Notes: a model not told the origin generated them from the sequence alone. Counted from the first letter of the stretch, positions 3,754 through 13,696 are shown. The stretch is DNA of 55,148 bases from a virus (IMGVR_UViG_3300032116_000256:1-55148), one strand, 5' to 3'. Translations and numbers: made by a program.

Positions 3754-4245
3754 CTATTTCTCCTCCCCAATTAAAATCTTAATAATCTTTTCTGCATTCT
3801 CCTGCATAGAAGGATAATGCAAAGTATTGAAAGACTCTCCATGCTTCTTGATAAACTTATCCCAATCTTTTTTCTCTTCTGGGGAGAGCGGCGTTTTGTT
3901 GGGACTAGCCTCGCAAGCCTTTCGGATAATATTTATCAGTTTATCTTCCATTAAACGAGCCGCAGCATGAATAGCGGCTTTGTCAGGATAGATTTCTTGG
4001 CGAATAGAAGTGCAACCATCTTTGACTTGAATTAGCCAAAAGCCATTGCGGAGACCATCATAAGCATATGGATCATTAACTGGCACGAACTTCTTGCCAA
4101 TCTTACGGTAAAGACGTTGATCTTCCTTAATGGCAATACGACTGCGATTAAGATCATCTTCAGATGAGTAGAGGTCACTGAACCGCATACTAAACATTCT
4201 GCGATAGCGTTCAGCTTCGTTCTTGTAGTGTTCTAGTTCTTTCAT
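3754..4245 (-). CDS. Hypothetical phage protein
   Basis: ATGA-coupled to the upstream gene. Confidence 0.7.
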   Translation of the reverse strand: MKELEHYKNEAERYRRMFSMRFSDLYSSEDDLNRSRIAIKEDQRLYRKIGKKFVPVNDPYAYDGLRNGFWLIQVKDGCTSIRQEIYPDKAAIHAAARLMEDKLINIIRKACEASPNKTPLSPEEKKDWDKFIKKHGESFNTLHYPSMQENAEKIIKILIGEEK

Positions 4246-4829
4246 GCGTTTTGCTTGTTGGCTAATTTATATTCTTTATAATTCTCTCCCTTAGCAACTT
4301 CTTTGTTCAAAACTTTAAACCAACCTCTTCTTGAGTGCATTTGTCCCTCTGCGCCGCTCACTTCACAAGTTCTGCCAGATGCGATGTCGGCAAAGTGAAC
4401 TATTCCGTCAAAGTAATCAGCATACCGCTTATTGATAGCGTCAAGTTCTGGATACTTTTTCGTTTCAACTAGAGAAGTGTTACCCTCATCGTATTCAAGA
4501 TGGTAGTAAAAGCGAAGAGTACCAAACTTTTCTTTTACTTGGTCAGCTACTACTTGAGGAGGCTTTACATTAAAAAAATACCTATACCTAATCTCGCCGT
4601 CTTTATAAGAGTAAGGTTTAATACCTAAACGTTTGCCATCTTCTTCATCTACTTCAATAGCAGTAGTATAGGTATAGGTAAGAGCTTCGCAAAGCACATC
4701 GATAAGATTGTACCATCCGTCACCCACTTCCAAGCCGAAAGCCATGCAAGACTCTTGCGGAGACTTGTTGGCGTCTCCGAAAATTTTCGGATACTTGGCG
4801 AAAAGTTTTTGTTCTAGTTCTGTATTCAT
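4242..4829 (-). CDS. Conserved hypothetical phage protein
   Basis: GDGWY...QVKEKFGTLRFYY...TCEVSG pattern, common in large phages. Confidence 0.75.
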   Translation of the reverse strand: MNTELEQKLFAKYPKIFGDANKSPQESCMAFGLEVGDGWYNLIDVLCEALTYTYTTAIEVDEEDGKRLGIKPYSYKDGEIRYRYFFNVKPPQVVADQVKEKFGTLRFYYHLEYDEGNTSLVETKKYPELDAINKRYADYFDGIVHFADIASGRTCEVSGAEGQMHSRRGWFKVLNKEVAKGENYKEYKLANKQNA

Positions 4830-5446: not shown

Positions 5447-5841
5447 GAATTTATAATGTTAAAAAATGATTCTGGCAGGATAACGTTTTCTGGAATGAAT
5501 TTACCTTTGAATAAATTTGCGATCTCCTCTTCTGAGTAACCAGCAAGACCGCAACCAATTTTCGTGACCAAGAACTCTGTGTCTGGGTATTCCATAACTT
5601 CACTGAGGAAAGAATAGATGTAGAATTCTATCTTGTCAAGAGAAAGTGTGCGAATAAACGTGTCTTTTGTAGGAATCGCAAAAGATTGGCCTTGTAAGCC
5701 ATAACCCATGCCCATTTTCGCTCCAAATTTTTCTACAGCTAATTTCGCTGCACCAGCACCGTGAATGCCAGCTTCATTGGAGCCAAACACAAATACTTGG
5801 TTTTTCTTGAGTTTTGTGATTTTATCTGGGGTGAATTTCAT
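5443..5841 (-). CDS. A1S_2505-like macrodomain-fold phage protein
   Basis: VFVFGSNEAGIHGAGAA, SFAIPT and VTKIGCGLAG motifs. Start reset to MKFTPD because the longer ORF runs into tRNA-Leu. Confidence 0.8.
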   Translation of the reverse strand: MKFTPDKITKLKKNQVFVFGSNEAGIHGAGAAKLAVEKFGAKMGMGYGLQGQSFAIPTKDTFIRTLSLDKIEFYIYSFLSEVMEYPDTEFLVTKIGCGLAGYSEEEIANLFKGKFIPENVILPESFFNIINS

Positions 5842-5848
5842 TGTAAAT

Positions 5849-5936
5849 TGGTAGCCGCAGTGGGATTCGAACCCACACGCTCTTACGAGCATTCGATTTT
5901 AAGTCGAATAGTGTCTGCCAGTTCCATCATGCGGCC
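5849..5936 (-). tRNA. tRNA-Leu(TAA)
   Basis: GGCCGCA/TGCGGCT acceptor, TTCGA-CTTAAAA-TCGAA anticodon arm, long variable arm, GGTTCGAATCC, ACCA end. Confidence 0.93.
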
Positions 5937-5941
5937 AAAAG

Positions 5942-6286
5942 TTATTCCAGAACTATAGTCTTACGGTTCAAATAGTCAATGGCTTTTTTCAAAATTCGCT
6001 CATCGTCATTGAATCTGCCAAGAGCAAGATTGCAGTTATTACATATATAACCGCGAAACTCATGAGAGAAATGGCAATGATCCAATATCCAATCATGCGT
6101 ATAATTTGAGCAAATTGGGCATTCGCCAGCTTGAGGCGGGGGATTTTCATCTTTTAATTTTTTTCTGAGAACTGATAGTTCTTTGCAGCAAACTGTGCAA
6201 GTGTTTTTTCTGCCGCCAGTTGACGAGGCGAAGAATGGGAATTGTTCAATTTCTTTTTTCTCTCCGCACTTGCGGCAGCACTTCAT
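5942..6286 (-). CDS. Endonuclease VII-like (HNH) nuclease, probable homing endonuclease
   Basis: CRKC..CTVC zinc finger, CPIC, LDHCH...FRGYICNNCNLALG. Confidence 0.85.
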   Translation of the reverse strand: MKCCRKCGEKKEIEQFPFFASSTGGRKNTCTVCCKELSVLRKKLKDENPPPQAGECPICSNYTHDWILDHCHFSHEFRGYICNNCNLALGRFNDDERILKKAIDYLNRKTIVLE

Positions 6287-6321
6287 TGAATCATGATAAT
6301 CTTTAGTTTGTAAATTTCAAT

Positions 6322-6432
6322 CGGTGGCGCGCAAGGAATTGAACCTTGATGGCAGTTGCCCTGCCTTGTCCATGTCGGCTGCTAAACATCGGCCAAGATG
6401 ACGACGGAATCGAACCGTCTTAGCCCTACGCC
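6322..6432 (-). ncRNA. tRNA-like structured RNA with two T-loops
   Basis: GGCGT...GCGCC-A-CCG ends; GACGG-TTCGATT-CCGTC and CAAGG-TTCAATT-CCTTG arms; lies in the tRNA array with the same short T-rich spacer. Confidence 0.65.
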
Positions 6433-6437
6433 AAAAT

Positions 6438-6512
6438 TGGTGGTTCCACTGGGATTCGAACCCAGAACCAACGACTTAAAAGGACGCTGCTCTACCATTG
6501 AGCTATAGAACC
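6438..6512 (-). tRNA. tRNA-Lys(TTT)
   Basis: GGTTCTA/TGGAACC acceptor, loop CTTTTAA, CCA end. Confidence 0.92.
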
Positions 6513-6520
6513 GAAAATTG

Positions 6521-6644
6521 ACCCTCTCTCAATAGCGTCGTTGTGTAGTCAGATTACAAGTGTCTATTCCACCATGAATCTGATTCCATTGCTACCAAAC
6601 GCCCAGCATTCAATAGATTCGTGAATGCAGCTAAGGGAGAGGGT
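6521..6644 (-). ncRNA. Unassigned structured RNA of about 125 nt
   Basis: ACCCTCTC/GAGAGGGT closing stem plus GCATTCA/TGAATGC, TCAGATT/AATCTGA and GTAG/CTAC helices; located between tRNAs. Confidence 0.55.
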
Positions 6645-6667
6645 TTCTGGGTAATTACTCCCAAAAG

Positions 6668-6678
6668 TGTAAAGAACA
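6668..6678 (-). promoter_or_regulatory. boxA-like antitermination element
   Basis: TGTTCTTTACA on the transcribed strand within the tRNA array; resembles rrn boxA TGCTCTTTAACA. Confidence 0.45.
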
Positions 6679-6683
6679 AAAAT

Positions 6684-6760
6684 TGGTCGTCCCGCTGGGA
6701 TTCGAACCCAGAACCTAGCCCTTATAAAGAGCTTGCTCTAACCAGTTAAGCTACGGGACA
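6684..6760 (-). tRNA. tRNA-Ile(TAT)
   Basis: AGCTC-TTTATAA-GGGCT anticodon arm, CTGGG-TTCGAAT-CCCAG T arm, ACCA end. Confidence 0.88.
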
Positions 6761-6764
6761 AAAT

Positions 6765-6841
6765 TGGTGGGCGATGAGGGATTCGAACCCCCGATCAAAG
6801 AATTATGAGTTCTCTGCTTTGAACCACTAAGCTAACCGCCC
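6765..6841 (-). tRNA. tRNA with CAT anticodon (Ile2 or elongator Met)
   Basis: GAGAA-CTCATAA-TTCTT; G1-C72 pair and no three G-C pairs in the anticodon stem, so not an initiator. Confidence 0.9.
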
Positions 6842-6843
6842 AT

Positions 6844-6920
6844 TGGCGCGAGGACCGAGAATCGAACTCGGAACCAACAGTTTAGAAAACTGTTGCTCTA
6901 TCCAGTTGAGCTATCCCCGC
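6844..6920 (-). tRNA. tRNA-Arg(TCT)
   Basis: ACAGT-TTTCTAA-ACTGT, D loop CTGGATA, GCCA end. Confidence 0.92.
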
Positions 6921-6925
6921 GAAAT

Positions 6926-7000
6926 TGGAGCAGCAGATGGGACTCGAACCCACAACATCCAGCTTGGAAGGATGGCGCTCTACCGTTGAGCTACTGCTGC
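6926..7000 (-). tRNA. tRNA-Gly(TCC)
   Basis: GCAGCAG/CTGCTGC acceptor, loop CTTCCAA, TCCA end (U73). Confidence 0.92.
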
Positions 7001-7009
7001 TAGTTTTAA

Positions 7010-7261
7010 TTAATTTAAAACCTGCTCTTGGGGTTGATTCTTTAGACGTTCACGCTCCCGATTAAGACGGCGCATTTGATTCTGATACTTGCGATCCTTC
7101 TTCTCGTCGTAATTAAGAGCAGCTTGAAACTCATCACGATACTTGGCAAGGATGAAGTTGTACGTCTTCATCGTGGAGGCGGCAACTGCCGCATCCGAAT
7201 ATCCGTTGAATGAATCAGCGGAACTACTAGGCAAGGGAGCGTTTTCGTCCATGTTAATCAA
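7010..7261 (-). CDS. Hypothetical protein
   Basis: ATGA-coupled to the upstream gene; basic C-terminal helix. Confidence 0.65.
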   Translation of the reverse strand: MINMDENAPLPSSSADSFNGYSDAAVAASTMKTYNFILAKYRDEFQAALNYDEKKDRKYQNQMRRLNRERERLKNQPQEQVLN

Positions 7262-10440: not shown

Positions 10441-11538
10441 TCAAAATGAGGGAACAATTGCTACCTGACTATAAGGAATTTCAGAACCATCTTCATTAGC
10501 AAGTTGGCTGTGATCGTAATTTAACTCTTCAACAGCAATTTGAAAAATTTGATCACTAGAAAGATCGTAGCCCTTCATGCGGCTCTGAATCTGCTTCACA
10601 GTAGGATATTCGCCAATTGAATGCTTGGTGTCGATGTAATTGCGAATCTTCAGCTTAATAAAGTCGTTTTCAACTTCATCGTCTGGAACTTCATCATCAG
10701 TTTCGGTATCGAAATTATAATCAGGACTATAGTCTGGATCATAATCATCACCAGCATTTTCATTGTAAATGGCATCAGGGATTTCCTTGCGCTCAGGAGT
10801 GATGTCGCTCAAGACACGATACTTTGAGACGCGCAGCTTCTGGAAATTACAATCAGTCGGCACGCTGACAGCATCAGCAGGGTCAACCTCAACCACAAGG
10901 AGACGCCCATCAGAACCAGCCCAATTATTTGCATAATCGTAGCTGCCAACGTGCAGACCAAAAGAGCAGTGATTTTCTTTGTTATCATCGACAGAGCGGC
11001 GAGCAACCTCAATCATTTCGCCAACACCATTATAAATGGAACCATTAGCGGCAACATTGCCGCGCACAACAACAGTATCCTTGTTGCCCTGCTTCGAATA
11101 AAAATCATTATTAACTCCCTTGTAGGCGAGGAACTTTCCATCAGCAGTGATGGGAAGACTCTTGTACGAAAGGAAAGTATAGAGTTCGTTGACTGAATTC
11201 GCAGAGGGATTCTGCATCAGACGGTCAATGAAGTTGAGCAGAGGCTCGGCATCCTTCGCCCCCTCCTTCAGCATGGCGAATAGCTTGTCCACCACAACGC
11301 CATGAACCTCAACGCCGCTGTGGAATAGCTTGCCATCATAAATGTCGATGGCTCCATGAGTCATGTTCTTGATCTTATTCTCAATCGTGATCAACTCAGG
11401 AATGAGATCGTACTGAGCGTCAAGGATAGCTTGGCGCAAGGAAGAGAAGTTCGGGTGCGAACTCTCAACGGTGTGCGGCTTGCCATCAACGAAAACGGTG
11501 ATGGAATTGTCGCGCATGATGTAGGCTGGCTTATTCAT
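10441..11538 (-). CDS. rIIB: rIIB-like protein
   Basis: NPS...ELY.FL....LPIT.DG.FLAYKGV...CSFGLHVG...V.VDP.D.VSVP.D...KLRV; adjacent to rIIA. Confidence 0.9.
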   Translation of the reverse strand: MNKPAYIMRDNSITVFVDGKPHTVESSHPNFSSLRQAILDAQYDLIPELITIENKIKNMTHGAIDIYDGKLFHSGVEVHGVVVDKLFAMLKEGAKDAEPLLNFIDRLMQNPSANSVNELYTFLSYKSLPITADGKFLAYKGVNNDFYSKQGNKDTVVVRGNVAANGSIYNGVGEMIEVARRSVDDNKENHCSFGLHVGSYDYANNWAGSDGRLLVVEVDPADAVSVPTDCNFQKLRVSKYRVLSDITPERKEIPDAIYNENAGDDYDPDYSPDYNFDTETDDEVPDDEVENDFIKLKIRNYIDTKHSIGEYPTVKQIQSRMKGYDLSSDQIFQIAVEELNYDHSQLANEDGSEIPYSQVAIVPSF

Positions 11539-11560
11539 AACTAGGATATATTATTGTGGT

Positions 11561-13672
11561 TTAGGACTTACGATTATCAACTAAATTAATGTAGTCAAGG
11601 AGAAGTTTAGCGGCACTTTTGACACCGTAGAAGGAACCGTAACGCCCCTCAAACAGTGCGAACATCATCGGATAAGACTGGTTGATTGTCAAGACTTCTT
11701 GCTTGATTTTTTCAGAAATTTTCGAGTCGAGAGTACAAATGTTACCATCGACGCAGTGGCGAGGAAAATCTCCCAAAACGTGAAACTCTTTGATTTGCTC
11801 TGGAGTGAAGCCATAGTCACCCATGTCGTCGCTTTTATTCCAAGCGTCGAAATAAACTGAAATCGGGTGATTGTCAGGCAAAGCTTTCCTCAGATCACTG
11901 AGGTGAGAAATCATAGGGAAAGAGCTTGTGCGAAATGACTTCTCCTCTTTGGCATTAAAAATTGATTTAAATTGAGCAATTGCCGCATTGAATTTGGGCA
12001 TGAGGGCATCATGCAAATTAATAGCGTGAGCGGGGAGATCAGTCCTATCCAAGACGCCATAAACATTGTCATAATTGATGCCAAAATGCTTTGCAATCTT
12101 CCAGATAGTTCTGAAGTCGTGCATCTGAAAGTTTTTGTGATCACCGAAAACAATATCGTAATTGTTGCCGCCGTTATGCTTGATGTCAACATAATAGAAA
12201 GGATCGCTAGGCATTGGAACCTTTTCCTTGAAACTGTAGCTGTAATGGCTGTTGGAAAAGATTTTGCGTACATTGTTGAACTCTTTACTCTTGGATGAAA
12301 CAGGAGTGAGTTTAGAAGCGAGGTGAATATGATCGCAAGAGTTATGCTTGTAAAGCAGTTTGCTTTCGGCGTCAGCAAGGGAAACTACATAGATTATCCC
12401 ATCGATTCCCTTGGAACTCATTAATCCATTAACGCGATCATGAATGTTTTTAACGTTATCATTGATAACGATACGCCAATTGTTTCCACCAGCATAAAAC
12501 ATCTTGGCACTGATAGTCTTTTGGACGTTCTGGGCCTTCTTTGACAACCGCACAAGATTGCGAGTGCTGCGAGACTTTTTGTAAATAGCCAACGGGACAA
12601 TCGGATCACCGTTGATTTTAATTACATTTTTATTGGCATCAGTGAAGTTATAATTAGCGTCGCAGCAAAGCGACTCAAGGTTATTGGAGCCGCTCAAAAG
12701 ATACAGCTTTTTGAAAAACTCTGCTGAGTCAGAAATCGCATCGATTTCTTTTTGAACTTGCGCTTTGATTTCCGTCTCCAACTTAGAGATGGCGCGAGCA
12801 ATGAAGTTCTTGGTCTGCGCGTTGTATTCTAGATTCTCGCGAGAGTGGTGCAGCGCAACCGAGCCAACTGGAAAGAAAAAGACGAAGAAATTAGAAAGGT
12901 AAGAGTTGGAGAATGCCTTGTAAATATTTGACGAGGCAATTGGATGATTCGCAAGATTGTCAAGATTCAGTGGGTAAGAAATGCCACCCATCACAATGAT
13001 AGGATCGGAGCGTCTGTTCCTCTCCATTCCCCAATCAGCGTTCTTAATCACCCACTCTGGGACCAAACGCGAAAAACCTTTGCAGACAAACCTCTCGTCA
13101 GAGAAGCGAATGACATTGTTGATTTCGCATTCGAAGTTGGAAATGTCCTCGCTTTTGATTGCAACAGAAATCTCAACGCCACTCGGCTCAGAAGTGGAAG
13201 TGTCAGAGAGCTTGGTGAAACGAGTGTCGCCATGCTCGTCAACATAAACAGAGATGACGATCTCAGTTCCATTGTGACGAGAACTAACCGTAAATGAATC
13301 AGTATACGACAGCGGAGCGAAACGACCAATGCCGAAACCGCCGATTGAATCGTTGTCGCTGCGCTTGGTTGAGCGACCATACTTGGTGTAGAGACCAAAG
13401 AGGTCAGACTCGGAAAGACCCGCGCCAAAGTCACGCACAACGAAAGTGGGACTCAGGCGAGTGGGAGCAGTGATCTCAACGTGACGGGACGAACCCTTGT
13501 TCGCGTCAACCGCATTGGCGATAGTTTCGCGTGCAGTTGCCAAGATGACATTGGAATAATTATTCCGCAAAAGCGACGAGATGTAGCGCATCTCATTCGC
13601 ATCAATGGTCGCGATTTCAGATTTGAAATCGTGAGATTCAACAACGTTTCGCTGGATGGATTTGACAATCAT
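11561..13672 (-). CDS. rIIA: rIIA-like protein (GHKL ATPase N-terminus)
   Basis: RETIANAVDA, VRDFGAGL, YGRSTK, IGGFGIG and SRENLEY motifs; start reset to MIVKS. Confidence 0.9.
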   Translation of the reverse strand: MIVKSIQRNVVESHDFKSEIATIDANEMRYISSLLRNNYSNVILATARETIANAVDANKGSSRHVEITAPTRLSPTFVVRDFGAGLSESDLFGLYTKYGRSTKRSDNDSIGGFGIGRFAPLSYTDSFTVSSRHNGTEIVISVYVDEHGDTRFTKLSDTSTSEPSGVEISVAIKSEDISNFECEINNVIRFSDERFVCKGFSRLVPEWVIKNADWGMERNRRSDPIIVMGGISYPLNLDNLANHPIASSNIYKAFSNSYLSNFFVFFFPVGSVALHHSRENLEYNAQTKNFIARAISKLETEIKAQVQKEIDAISDSAEFFKKLYLLSGSNNLESLCCDANYNFTDANKNVIKINGDPIVPLAIYKKSRSTRNLVRLSKKAQNVQKTISAKMFYAGGNNWRIVINDNVKNIHDRVNGLMSSKGIDGIIYVVSLADAESKLLYKHNSCDHIHLASKLTPVSSKSKEFNNVRKIFSNSHYSYSFKEKVPMPSDPFYYVDIKHNGGNNYDIVFGDHKNFQMHDFRTIWKIAKHFGINYDNVYGVLDRTDLPAHAINLHDALMPKFNAAIAQFKSIFNAKEEKSFRTSSFPMISHLSDLRKALPDNHPISVYFDAWNKSDDMGDYGFTPEQIKEFHVLGDFPRHCVDGNICTLDSKISEKIKQEVLTINQSYPMMFALFEGRYGSFYGVKSAAKLLLDYINLVDNRKS

Positions 13673-13696
13673 GGGAGCAATTTGATTTACAGGCAA

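What the first reader, a model, noticed from the sequence alone, without database searches (positions are those of the whole stretch)
6322..6432. tRNA-like RNA with two T-loops and no D arm or standard anticodon arm
Seen on the minus strand: GGCGTAG acceptor-like start; GACGG-TTCGATT-CCGTC (a perfect T arm in the D-arm position); a long imperfect hairpin CTTGGCCGATGTT...GACATGGACAAG; GGCAG-GGCAA-CTGCC variable-arm-like hairpin; CAAGG-TTCAATT-CCTTG T arm; CGCGCC-A-CCG end. It follows tRNA-Lys with the same short T-rich spacer as the real tRNAs. Known: interdigitated double T-loops bind tRNA elbows in RNase P and T-boxes; T4 makes non-tRNA stable RNAs in its tRNA cluster; bacterial Y RNAs mimic tRNA. 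Inference: a processed tRNA mimic or decoy (for example against anticodon nucleases) or a tRNA-binding RNA.
Basis: partly seen in the sequence, partly recalled or inferred. Interest (0 to 1): 0.75.

Follow-up and report, generated by a model that had tools for sequence, protein, structure and literature searches.

The report
Phage tRNA-like RNA with two T arms
A freshwater phage carries, at the end of a run of tRNA genes, a well-conserved 111-base gene for a tRNA-shaped RNA that has two copies of the tRNA "T arm" but no anticodon arm, so it probably imitates a tRNA rather than decoding, much like the still unexplained small RNAs of phage T4.

Summary
Window 6432..6322 (minus strand) has a 5-bp acceptor-like closing stem and two perfect T arms. 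A U-rich spacer separates it from tRNA-Lys. ARAGORN at its default and slightly lowered thresholds finds no tRNA or tmRNA there, and Rfam has no family matching it.

It is not a decaying pseudogene. Thirteen other contigs carry it, as 5 sequence variants. These are 93.5-100% identical to the window. Where the neighbouring endonuclease gene has fallen to 70.5% nucleotide identity, the true tRNAs are 89-96%. Changes sit mostly in loops. Three of six variants end in a true N-CCA.

Covariation is uninformative: no double compensatory change was seen. Close relatives lack the gene precisely.

The closest known things are T4 species 1 and 2 RNAs (rnaC, rnaD), which have the same position and a tRNA-like frame, and whose role is unknown. 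They are not homologous by my model.

Unrelated viral contigs hold other closed RNAs with two T arms.

Best reading: a processed, non-decoding tRNA mimic. Its target is inferred only. Interest 0.6.

The parts
6322..6432 (-). Whole tRNA-like RNA gene. RNA position p corresponds to window coordinate 6433-p. Positions 1-107 are the body and 108-111 the 3' tail.
   Evidence: Sequence. The boundaries of conservation in 5 variants begin at TTTT-GGCG and end after GCGCGCC-N-CCA/CCG/TCA-ATT.
6433..6437 (-). AUUUU spacer or 5' leader between the CCA of tRNA-Lys and G1. This is the presumed RNase P leader (inferred).
   Evidence: TTTT before G1 is kept even where the upstream neighbour is an ORF (L162) or another RNA (L159).
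6428..6432 (-). 5' strand of the acceptor-like closing stem P1 (GGCGU, positions 1-5).
   Evidence: Pair probability 0.91-0.98. U5.G103 becomes U5-A103 in L162.
6326..6330 (-). 3' strand of P1 (GCGCC, positions 103-107).
6403..6419 (-). First T arm (T1): GACGG-UUCGAUU-CCGUC, positions 14-30. It sits where a D arm would be.
   Evidence: Invariant in all 5 variants.
6391..6425 (-). Favoured 35-nt hairpin (positions 8-42): helix GGCUAA/UUGGCC carrying T1, with a 6-nt 3' bulge.
   Evidence: Pair probability about 0.72 against about 0.01. Present in the MFE. No sequence variation is available to test it.
6372..6389 (-). Short hairpin AUGU-(10-nt variable loop)-ACAU, positions 44-61.
   Evidence: G46-C59 becomes G.U in 2 of the 5 variants. 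Loop positions 49, 51 and 52 vary. Pair probability is only about 0.24.
6351..6365 (-). Variable-arm-like hairpin GGCAG-GGCAA-CUGCC, positions 68-82.
   Evidence: Pair probability 0.98-0.99. Positions 72, 73 and 77 vary, and position 75 varies in the RNA-library contig.
6332..6348 (-). Second T arm (T2): CAAGG-UUCAAUU-CCUUG, positions 85-101, next to the 3' acceptor strand.
   Evidence: Pair probability 0.91-0.95. A93G (purine 57 of a T-loop) in 4 of the 5 variants.
6322..6325 (-). 3' tail A-CCG. It reads G-CCA in L159, L162 and the RNA-library contig, and A-UCA in the L212 and L133 groups.
6438..6512 (-). Upstream tRNA-Lys(UUU).
   Evidence: ARAGORN. Rfam tRNA 71.7 bits.

Best explanation
It is a functional gene for a stable, non-decoding, tRNA-derived RNA of about 108-111 nt, carried as one unit of the phage's tRNA array.

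Shown:
- It has an acceptor-like closing stem stacked next to a canonical T arm.
- It has a second canonical T arm near the 5' end, two further hairpins, and no anticodon arm.
- It has a U-rich leader, and an N-CCA end in three of six variants (including a sixth variant seen only in an RNA-library contig).
- It is kept at tRNA-like sequence identity in phages whose flanking genes have diverged.

Inferred:
- It is transcribed with the tRNAs.
- It is cut out by RNase P at G1 and by the tRNA 3'-end machinery, with CCA trimmed to or rebuilt by the CCA-adding enzyme where the gene reads CCG or TCA.
- It then acts as a tRNA mimic that occupies a tRNA-binding factor. The most likely target is a host tRNA-directed nuclease or other defence protein, or a T-arm/acceptor-recognising enzyme.

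In kind it corresponds to the T4 species 1 and 2 RNAs, whose role is also unknown.
For: - Two T-arm motifs are present where 0.24 per window are expected. Closing stem, T2 and the GGCAG hairpin have pair probability above 0.9.
- It is not a tRNA, tmRNA or Rfam family.
- Thirteen other loci carry it (2 viral contigs seen as L133/L153 and L134/L154, plus 10 of the 60 metagenome pattern hits), giving 5 variants.
- Against the L133 group the element is 93.5% identical, tRNA-Lys 96.0% and tRNA-Ile 89.5%, while EndoVII DNA is 70.5%. In the L183 group the element is 95.4% identical, and of three loci one (L204) keeps a 94.7% tRNA-Lys while two (L183, L212) carry a tRNA-Lys that BLAST does not align. 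Against L162 the element is 93.6% while tRNA-Lys is 89.5% and tRNA-Leu 79.5%.
- Only 10 of 107 columns vary. Six or seven of them are unpaired, depending on the model. Two of the three changes in the core helices keep the pair (U.G to U-A; G-C to G.U). The T-loop change is purine to purine.
- The first 40 columns are invariant (p = 0.007 under uniform spread, post hoc).
- Conservation starts at TTTT-GGCG whatever lies upstream, and N-CCA is present in L159 and L162 and in the RNA-library contig.
- One contig of a metatranscriptome library (1 of 4 runs laid) covers 6244-6458.
- The T4 parallel: rnaD and rnaC lie directly after tRNA-Arg, and rnaC has a T arm plus an acceptor-like stem.
Against: - There is no compensatory double substitution in any of 31 tested pairs. 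The shuffle controls equal the observed values, so structure is not proven by covariation.
- Enrichment of changes in unpaired columns is not significant (Fisher p = 0.09 to 0.51, depending on the model).
- The MFE z-score is only -1.40.
- The encoded 3' end is not CCA in the window (CCG) or in 2 of the 5 DNA variants (TCA), and the discriminator varies between A and G. This suggests the 3' end is under loose constraint.
- The gene is dispensable. It is absent, with a clean junction, from L124/L131, and my model did not find it in 5 relatives' records, one of them 88% complete.
- The RNA-library contig runs through both ends and could be precursor or DNA carry-over.
- No binding partner or target was identified. 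No antisense match of 12 nt or more exists in the window.
- High identity could partly reflect recent exchange between phages.
Confidence: 0.55

Rival explanations
1. It is a cis-acting processing or punctuation element, like a plant-mitochondrial t-element. Its tRNA-like shape only recruits RNase P and RNase Z to define the 3' end of tRNA-Lys and the 5' end of the downstream mRNA. The excised RNA itself has no role.
For: - It always lies at the downstream edge of a tRNA sub-array, directly before protein genes: EndoVII in the window, L159 and L162, and small ORFs in the L133 and L212 groups.
- The CCA end and the discriminator are loosely kept.
- The RNA-library contig joins it to both flanks.
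Against: - In L124 tRNA-Lys itself abuts the same EndoVII upstream region, so no extra element is needed.
- A promoter-like site (TTGAAA-16-TATCAT) lies between the element and EndoVII.
- A processing signal would need only an acceptor stem and one T arm. It would not need 47 invariant 5' nucleotides including a second T arm.
Confidence: 0.12
2. It is a non-functional remnant: two tRNA genes fused and partly deleted. It looks conserved only because it spread recently between related phages, for example by co-conversion with the adjacent homing-type endonuclease gene.
For: - It is patchily present and cleanly absent in relatives.
- The CCA has decayed to CCG or TCA in 3 of the 5 DNA variants.
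- There is no covariation.
- My model's next-best hits are simply the T arm of one tRNA plus the following tRNA.
- An EndoVII-family gene is adjacent.
- Homing endonucleases do reshuffle phage tRNA regions (PMC13096335, abstract and outline read).
Against: - The element is 93.5-95.4% identical where the endonuclease gene itself is only 70.5-70.8% identical, so it did not arrive together with that gene.
- The downstream spacer is unalignable between variant groups while the element's edges are sharp.
- Changes avoid the stems, or keep the pair where they fall in one.
- Its T stems (GACGG, CAAGG) match none of the array's own tRNAs, so it is not a recent local duplication.
Confidence: 0.1
3. It is an aminoacylatable tRNA-like molecule. 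It would be either a very aberrant decoding tRNA or a carrier that is charged and used off the ribosome.
For: - It has an acceptor stem, a T arm, a discriminator and CCA in 3 of 6 variants.
- The outline resembles a class II tRNA with a variable-arm-like hairpin.
- ARAGORN forced to an 80% threshold with introns allowed draws a 'tRNA-Ala(agc)' with a 15-nt intron.
Against: - That ARAGORN call appears only at the 80% threshold and needs an intron type not known in bacteria or phages. Default, -ps and -ps90 settings give nothing.
- The Rfam tRNA model gives no hit even at E<=10.
- There is no 5-bp stem with a 7-nt loop and U33. Both candidate loops vary freely.
- The discriminator varies A/G, and the acceptor stem has only 5 pairs.
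- The window's long ORFs read normally in code 11, so no suppressor is called for.
Confidence: 0.07
4. It is a tRNA-binding RNA. The two T-loops interdigitate as in RNase P, T-box stem I and the L1 stalk, giving a flat surface that stacks on the elbow of another tRNA, for instance the neighbouring tRNA-Lys.
For: - Two complete T-loop motifs are invariant or change only purine to purine.
- In a cloverleaf-like fold, T1 takes the place of the D arm, whose loop normally meets the T-loop.
- The review of the motif expects further examples (PMC4810234, passages read).
Against: - Known interdigitated modules are built from bulges or loops within one compact domain. They are not two standard 5-bp/7-nt tRNA T arms about 64 nt apart (PMC4810234 passages).
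- In the favoured fold T1 caps an 11-bp helix and may not reach T2.
- No specifier-like or NCCA-pairing sequence is conserved (my reading).
- No three-dimensional test was possible.
Confidence: 0.07

Closest known systems
Bacteriophage T4 species 1 and species 2 RNAs (rnaC, 139 nt; rnaD, 119 nt)
   Same: - They are encoded on the tRNA strand at the end of a phage tRNA cluster, a few nt after a tRNA (tRNA-Arg, rnaD, rnaC). A homing endonuclease gene lies in the same cluster.
- They are of similar size.
- rnaC has an acceptor-like closing stem, long internal hairpins and a canonical T arm (CCGGG-UUCGAAU-CCCGG) next to the 3' strand.
- rnaD ends in ..CACC(A).
- They are absent from Rfam.
- Their role is unknown (PMC3014915 passage; PMC12685909 passages).
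   Different: - No homology is detectable. Model R1 does not hit rnaC or rnaD; its only hit in the T4 locus is a tRNA pair at E = 0.22.
- T4 rnaC has one T arm, not two.
- The host and phage lineage differ (a freshwater uncultured phage of roughly 145 kb, if 55 kb is 38% of it).
Canonical (class II) tRNA, Rfam RF00005
   Same: A closing acceptor-type stem, a 2-nt linker after it, four hairpins around one junction, a variable-arm-like hairpin, a perfect T arm, a discriminator plus CCA in some variants, and the same gene punctuation as the array's tRNAs.
   Different: There is no D arm, because a T arm takes its place. There is no anticodon arm. The acceptor stem has 5 bp. It is 111 nt long. ARAGORN at default, -ps and -ps90 settings and the Rfam tRNA model do not detect it.
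Bacterial Y-RNA-like YrlA (RF02553) and other tRNA mimics (tmRNA tRNA-like domain, mascRNA)
   Same: A non-coding RNA that contains a tRNA-like module with a canonical T arm.
   Different: The Rfam YrlA, tmRNA and mascRNA models give no match on the element. Their weak sub-threshold rows all lie on true tRNAs. ARAGORN's tmRNA mode is negative. The element lacks a Ro-binding stem and has no tag reading frame.
Interdigitated double T-loop module (RNase P, T-box stem I, L1 stalk)
   Same: Two T-loop motifs in one RNA.
   Different: Here both are full tRNA-type T arms on separate hairpins. Interdigitation and elbow binding were not tested (for the definition).
Other closed RNAs with two T arms found here in unrelated viral contigs (L077/L240; L229/L235/L239; the L230 group; L232; L315/L361/L297)
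   Same: - Each is about 100-120 nt and closed by a stem that abuts the 3' T arm.
- Each has a second T arm nearer the 5' end.
- ARAGORN does not call them.
- No Rfam gathering-score hit was found in the 6 loci scanned (L230, L229, L239, L077, L232, L241); L315, L361 and L297 were not scanned.
- Several lie in tRNA arrays.
- L229 and L239 differ by compensatory changes in both T stems and in a central hairpin.
   Different: - No sequence similarity exists beyond the T arms. R1 gives 19-24 bits, the same as for tandem tRNAs.
- The central parts differ. L315, L361 and L297 keep a canonical D arm.
- One of them lies beside integrase genes.
- They may be a mixed bag.

Membership tests
tRNA (RF00005 / ARAGORN) | Detected by tRNA covariance or heuristic models | tested here: not met
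   ARAGORN default, -ps, -ps90 and -i: 0 genes on the element. Rfam tRNA: no row on the element at gathering score or at E<=10.
tRNA (RF00005 / ARAGORN) | Anticodon arm: 5-bp stem, 7-nt loop with U33 | tested here: not met
   No such arm exists in any register I tried by hand on the sequence. The candidate loops are 10 nt and 5-7 nt long and vary between variants.
tRNA (RF00005 / ARAGORN) | D arm with conserved GG that pairs with the T-loop | tested here: not met
   The D-arm position is taken by GACGG-UUCGAUU-CCGUC.
tRNA (RF00005 / ARAGORN) | T arm (G53, U54 U55 C56 R57 A58, C61) next to the 3' acceptor strand | tested here: met
   CAAGG-UUCAAUU-CCUUG at positions 85-101. A93G keeps the purine.
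tRNA (RF00005 / ARAGORN) | 7-bp acceptor stem, discriminator, CCA | tested here: inconclusive
   5 bp plus A.C and G.G mismatches. The tail is A-CCG in the window, G-CCA in L159, L162 and the X17 contig, and A-UCA in two groups.
tmRNA | tRNA-like domain with a tag reading frame; detected by ARAGORN -m or Rfam | tested here: not met
T4-type tRNA-cluster stable RNAs (rnaC/rnaD) | Encoded in or at the end of a phage tRNA cluster, on the same strand, a few nt from a tRNA | tested here: met
   5 nt after tRNA-Lys.
T4-type tRNA-cluster stable RNAs (rnaC/rnaD) | About 120-140 nt, acceptor-like closing stem plus T arm (rnaC), non-tRNA centre | tested here: met
   111 nt.
T4-type tRNA-cluster stable RNAs (rnaC/rnaD) | Sequence or structure homology to T4 rnaC or rnaD | tested here: not met
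   R1 finds nothing on rnaC or rnaD in L215 at E<=1. This is why I file the element as the same kind, not the same family.
T4-type tRNA-cluster stable RNAs (rnaC/rnaD) | Accumulates as a stable RNA processed from the tRNA precursor | not testable with these tools
   Only one RNA-library contig spans it. Contigs cannot show ends.
Interdigitated T-loop tRNA-elbow binder | Two T-loop pentanucleotide motifs | tested here: met
Interdigitated T-loop tRNA-elbow binder | Head-to-tail reciprocal intercalation of the two loops, and stacking on a tRNA elbow | not testable with these tools
   The definition comes from PMC4810234 passages. No RNA 3D tool was available.
YrlA / bacterial Y RNA (RF02553) | Match to the family model | tested here: not met
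   The YrlA rows (23.7 and 18 bits, against a gathering score of 69) lie on true tRNAs at 6895-6957 and 6705-6817, not on the element.

The most novel reading that the evidence does not exclude
The element is one member of an undescribed, recurrent class of phage RNAs: closed tRNA-like molecules of about 100-120 nt that have lost the anticodon arm and gained a second T arm. The two T-loops would build an elbow-like or elbow-binding module. Such RNAs would serve as counter-defence decoys or tRNA-handling factors, for example against nucleases that recognise the T arm, elbow or acceptor end of tRNA-Lys. That reading might also bear on the role of T4 RNAs C and D.
Probability: 0.15. Interest if true: 0.85.

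Novelty: new variant of a known kind. Interest (0 to 1): 0.6.

Why it matters
Phage tRNA arrays are now seen as weapons against tRNA-cutting host defences. Examples are the T5 tRNA-Lys against PARIS (PMC11455837, passages read) and T6 tRNA-Tyr against Septu (PMC13096335, abstract). [quoted passage not shown]

This report adds a conserved, clearly delimited example with an unusual anatomy of two T arms. It comes with natural presence/absence variants. There are also signs that similar RNAs, which tRNA finders and Rfam do not pick up, occur in many other viral contigs.

That gives a concrete set of RNAs in which to test whether phages use tRNA-shaped decoys.

If the element is only a processing signal or a remnant, it is a minor annotation note.

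Tried and rejected
BLAST of the 118 fetched loci gave only T-arm matches, no homolog. An exact two-arm pattern gave 0 hits because relatives carry G, not A, in T-loop 2.
- Two exact stretches of 20-24 nt found only the two viral contigs already known.
- Genome-contig scan: 13 hits, none a homolog, so there is no host clue.
- Model R1 on 36, 51 and 22 held sources found only the known copies at about 140 bits. Everything else was 30 bits or less and lay on tandem tRNAs or other double-T RNAs. In 5 relatives' whole records it found 0 matches.
- ARAGORN at an 80% threshold with introns gave a forced tRNA-Ala with a 15-nt intron, and the -mt -ps setting gave an 'mtRNA-Ser'. I rejected both as artefacts of lowered thresholds.
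- Pseudoknot GCUAA(9-13)/UUAGC(48-52): broken in 4 of the 5 variants (my reading).
- A T-box-like pairing of UGGC(38-41) with the RNA's own GCCA tail works only in 2 variants.
- Antisense targets: no complement of 12 nt or more in the window. Only 38% of the genome is held.
- The paired-versus-unpaired substitution test was not significant.
- RNA runs X15, X16 and X18: no contig on the element. Their tRNA-Lys pieces continue into unrelated flanks, so they come from other genomes. This is no evidence of silence.
- L062, L017 and L011 double-T candidates had no convincing fold.
- Earlier-findings look-ups returned nothing.
- Literature searches turned up no paper describing a phage tRNA-like RNA with two T arms. 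They cover only the held open-access library, and supplements were not consulted.

Full report
**What is there**

Read on the minus strand, window 6432..6322 is a 111-nt unit that begins 5 nt (AUUUU) after the encoded CCA of tRNA-Lys(UUU).

I number the RNA from G1 (window 6432).
- G1-U5 pair with G103-C107.
- G14-C30 is GACGG-UUCGAUU-CCGUC (T1).
- G68-C82 is GGCAG-GGCAA-CUGCC.
- C85-G101 is CAAGG-UUCAAUU-CCUUG (T2).
- The tail is A-CCG.

The T-loop motif GGTTCRANYCC occurs 9 times in 55 kb, against 0.24 expected. Six hits are in the ARAGORN tRNAs, two are in this unit, and one lies elsewhere.

**What it is not**

- ARAGORN tRNAs in the window and nothing here.
- Rfam at gathering score finds only those 7 tRNAs.
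- At E<=10 on 5700-7200, the only row overlapping the element is a chance-level snoTBR5 match (16.1 bits against a gathering score of 44).
- Lowered ARAGORN thresholds (-ps, -ps90), intron mode and tmRNA mode give nothing. Only the -mt -ps setting and an 80% threshold give forced, implausible calls.
- No arm with a 5-bp stem and a 7-nt U33 loop can be drawn.
- The window's ORFs read normally in code 11.

It is therefore not a decoding tRNA, a tmRNA or a member of any curated RNA family.

**Relatives**

The window is a 55-kb IMG/VR record, judged 38% complete. No deposited phage is close.

Using neighbouring proteins and DNA patterns I found the element in 13 other loci.
- Two viral contigs carry it (L133/L153 and L134/L154).
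- Ten of the 60 metagenome contigs that matched a two-T-loop pattern carry it.

These collapse to 5 variants. A sixth was seen only as differences in an RNA-library contig.

Identity to the window is 93.5-100%. The comparison with the flanks is the key result.

| Comparison | Element | tRNA-Lys | Other tRNAs | EndoVII gene |
|---|---|---|---|---|
| L133 group | 93.5% | 96.0% | tRNA-Ile 89.5% | 70.5% |
| L183 group | 95.4% | 94.7% in L204; not aligned by BLAST in L183 and L212 | tRNA-Leu 75.0% | 70.8% |
| L162 | 93.6% | 89.5% | tRNA-Leu 79.5% | 91.0% |

The downstream spacer is unalignable between variant groups. Conservation starts at TTTT-GGCG whatever lies upstream: a tRNA, an ORF in L162, or other RNAs in L159. 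A decaying fused pseudogene would not behave like this.

**Pattern of change**

Ten of 107 columns vary.
- Positions 49, 51 and 52 lie in a hairpin loop.
- Positions 73 and 77 lie in the GGCAA loop. Position 75 also varies there in the RNA-library contig.
- Position 93 is the purine-57 position of T-loop 2, changing A to G.
- Position 41 is a one-base deletion.
- C59U keeps the pair as G.U.
- G103A turns U.G into U-A.
- G72A breaks one pair.

The first 40 columns never vary (p = 0.007 under a uniform spread, a post-hoc test).

There is no compensatory double change in any of 31 pairs, and the shuffle controls equal the observed values. The excess of changes in unpaired columns is not significant (p = 0.09 to 0.51). 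Selection on the sequence is therefore clear, but the fold is not proven by covariation. The family as sampled is too shallow.

**Fold**

P1, the GGCAG hairpin and T2 have pair probabilities of 0.91-0.99. The 5' half is ambiguous.
- The ensemble favours a helix GGCUAA(8-13)/UUGGCC(37-42) that carries T1 on top. This gives a 35-nt, minihelix-like hairpin with pair probability about 0.72.
- RNAalifold instead prefers the long hairpin plus a 3-bp extension of T1, and it disrupts T2.

In either case the outline is cloverleaf-like. P1 is followed by a 2-nt linker, a T-loop-capped arm in the D-arm position, a central hairpin with a variable loop, a variable-arm-like hairpin, and then T2 next to the 3' strand. 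The whole-sequence MFE z-score is only -1.40.

**Ends and dispensability**

L159, L162 and the RNA-library contig read G-CCA. The window reads A-CCG. Two groups read A-UCA. The ancestral unit therefore had a tRNA-type N-CCA end. Today the encoded CCA is only loosely kept, which is tolerable if the CCA-adding enzyme completes the end (inference).

L124/L131, a relative with 89% rIIB-like identity, lacks the unit exactly. There the CCA-ATT of tRNA-Lys joins the same EndoVII upstream sequence. My model finds no copy in 5 relatives' records, one of them 88% complete. One-per-species bacterial genomes have none. The gene is an accessory cassette of one group of freshwater phages; the runs that hold the stretch are mostly freshwater metagenomes.

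**Expression**

Four metatranscriptome runs were laid on the region. In one (X17), a 215-nt contig covers 6244-6458. It spans the element, the end of tRNA-Lys and the start of EndoVII. This fits co-transcription, but it could also be DNA carry-over, and contigs cannot show ends.

**Closest known**

In T4, tRNA-Arg is followed within 1-6 nt by rnaD (119 nt) and rnaC (139 nt). A homing endonuclease gene sits in the same cluster.

rnaC has an acceptor-like closing stem, long central hairpins and a canonical T arm next to its 3' strand. Its fold z-score is -4.57. rnaD ends in ..CACC(A).

Rfam has no family for these RNAs, so Rfam's silence on my element says little about this kind of RNA. Their roles are unknown (PMC3014915 passage). 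A T4-like phage evolved on a semi-permissive host acquired the same rnaD SNP in all lines (PMC12685909 passages).

My model does not match rnaC or rnaD. I therefore treat the element as the same kind of thing, not the same family. Its distinguishing feature is the second T arm.

**A wider pattern, partly followed**

Short-gap two-T-loop patterns picked up other closed RNAs in unrelated viral contigs.
- L077/L240 lies directly after tRNA-Ala, with fold z = -2.75.
- L229/L235 and L239 differ by compensatory changes in both T stems and in a central hairpin.
- The L230 group comprises 5 contigs, with a fold of -66.7 kcal/mol.
- L232 is a further example.

In the 6 loci scanned, none of these RNAs has a gathering-score Rfam hit.

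| Class | Matches |
|---|---|
| Both T-loops inside called tRNAs | 11 |
| Only the first T-loop inside a called tRNA (a tRNA followed by a T-arm-bearing fragment) | 61 |
| Neither T-loop inside a called tRNA | 49 |

Of the 49, 16 have two good T stems plus a closing stem next to T2. In 7 loci that closing stem is 7 bp or longer. A 5-bp stem is expected by chance.

L315, L361 and L297 show an acceptor strand, T1, a small hairpin, a canonical D arm, a short linker, T2 and the second acceptor strand.

R1 scores on all of these (19-24 bits) equal those for tandem tRNAs, so no homology is implied. The set may be mixed; one member lies beside integrase genes.

**Mechanism**

*Shown:* a tRNA-framed, anticodon-less RNA gene under purifying selection, with tRNA-type punctuation.

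*Inferred:* it is excised by RNase P and the 3' machinery. It then acts by tRNA mimicry on a factor that reads the acceptor/T-arm or elbow region.

I rank a decoy role against tRNA-directed host defences first, for these reasons.
- Such defences are a main known reason for phages to carry tRNAs.
- The unit usually rides with tRNA-Lys.
- In relatives, tRNA-Lys itself shows unusual T and D loops.

No partner was identified, and this step is a guess. The rival readings are a cis-processing element, a remnant, a chargeable tRNA-like molecule and an elbow binder. They are weighed in their own sections.

Noticed in passing
window 6513-6683 (-), between tRNA-Ile and tRNA-Lys: A second non-tRNA RNA candidate of 171 nt. 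It folds at -49.7 kcal/mol (z = -3.43) and is closed by CCCUCUCCC/GAGAGAGGG. It is 96.5% conserved in L162, and present in L121 within a 657-nt match at 99.7%. There is no Rfam hit. In RNA run X16 a contig reads adapter, window 6537-6627, adapter, which indicates a short RNA insert. An X18 contig covers 6521-6657. In other relatives the slot holds a roughly 70-aa ORF instead.
   Followed up: partly
L159, about 250 nt upstream of its copy of the element: A tRNA-Lys(UUU)-like gene with a non-canonical T-loop (AGCGUUA) and a short D-loop, which ARAGORN misses. It is followed by a short CCA-ended tRNA-like hairpin RNA. The L183 and L212 loci carry yet another tRNA-Lys, with T-loop GAUCGUA.
   Followed up: no
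L077 522-642 (-), L240; L229/L235/L239; L230/L231/L238/L242/L244; L232; L315/L361/L297: Other closed RNAs of about 100-120 nt with two T arms, in unrelated viral contigs. ARAGORN does not call them. In the 6 loci scanned they have no gathering-score Rfam hit. L229 and L239 show compensatory changes. L315, L361 and L297 keep a canonical D arm after an inserted T arm.
   Followed up: partly
120 viral loci L247-L366: In 61 of 121 short-gap double-T-loop matches, a called tRNA is followed within 46-60 nt by a second T-arm-like motif that belongs to no called tRNA. These could be tRNA gene fragments or mini tRNA-like units.
   Followed up: no
window 5942-6286 (-): An Endonuclease VII family gene (PF02945, E = 3e-15) is embedded in the tRNA array, with a promoter-like TTGAAA-16-TATCAT just after the element (6320-6293). 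This recalls segB in the T4 array and the reported role of SegB in amplifying tRNA segments.
   Followed up: partly
L129 about 2508-2628: After tRNA-Ile, a stretch of roughly 120 nt is closed by AGAAUCGUAU/AUACGAUUCU. It may be another array-borne structured RNA.
   Followed up: no
L141 about 4189-4273: A jumbo-phage contig (256 kb) has a tRNA-like unit GGGUGUUG...CAACAUCCA with a canonical T arm but a non-tRNA centre, lying between tRNA-Lys and tRNA-Gln.
   Followed up: no
window 10441-13696 (-): A 711-aa protein with a GHKL-type ATPase domain (PF13589) lies next to a 365-aa protein with no Pfam hit. From memory the pair resembles rIIA/rIIB; that name comes from no call. The 365-aa protein served to find relatives.
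   Followed up: no
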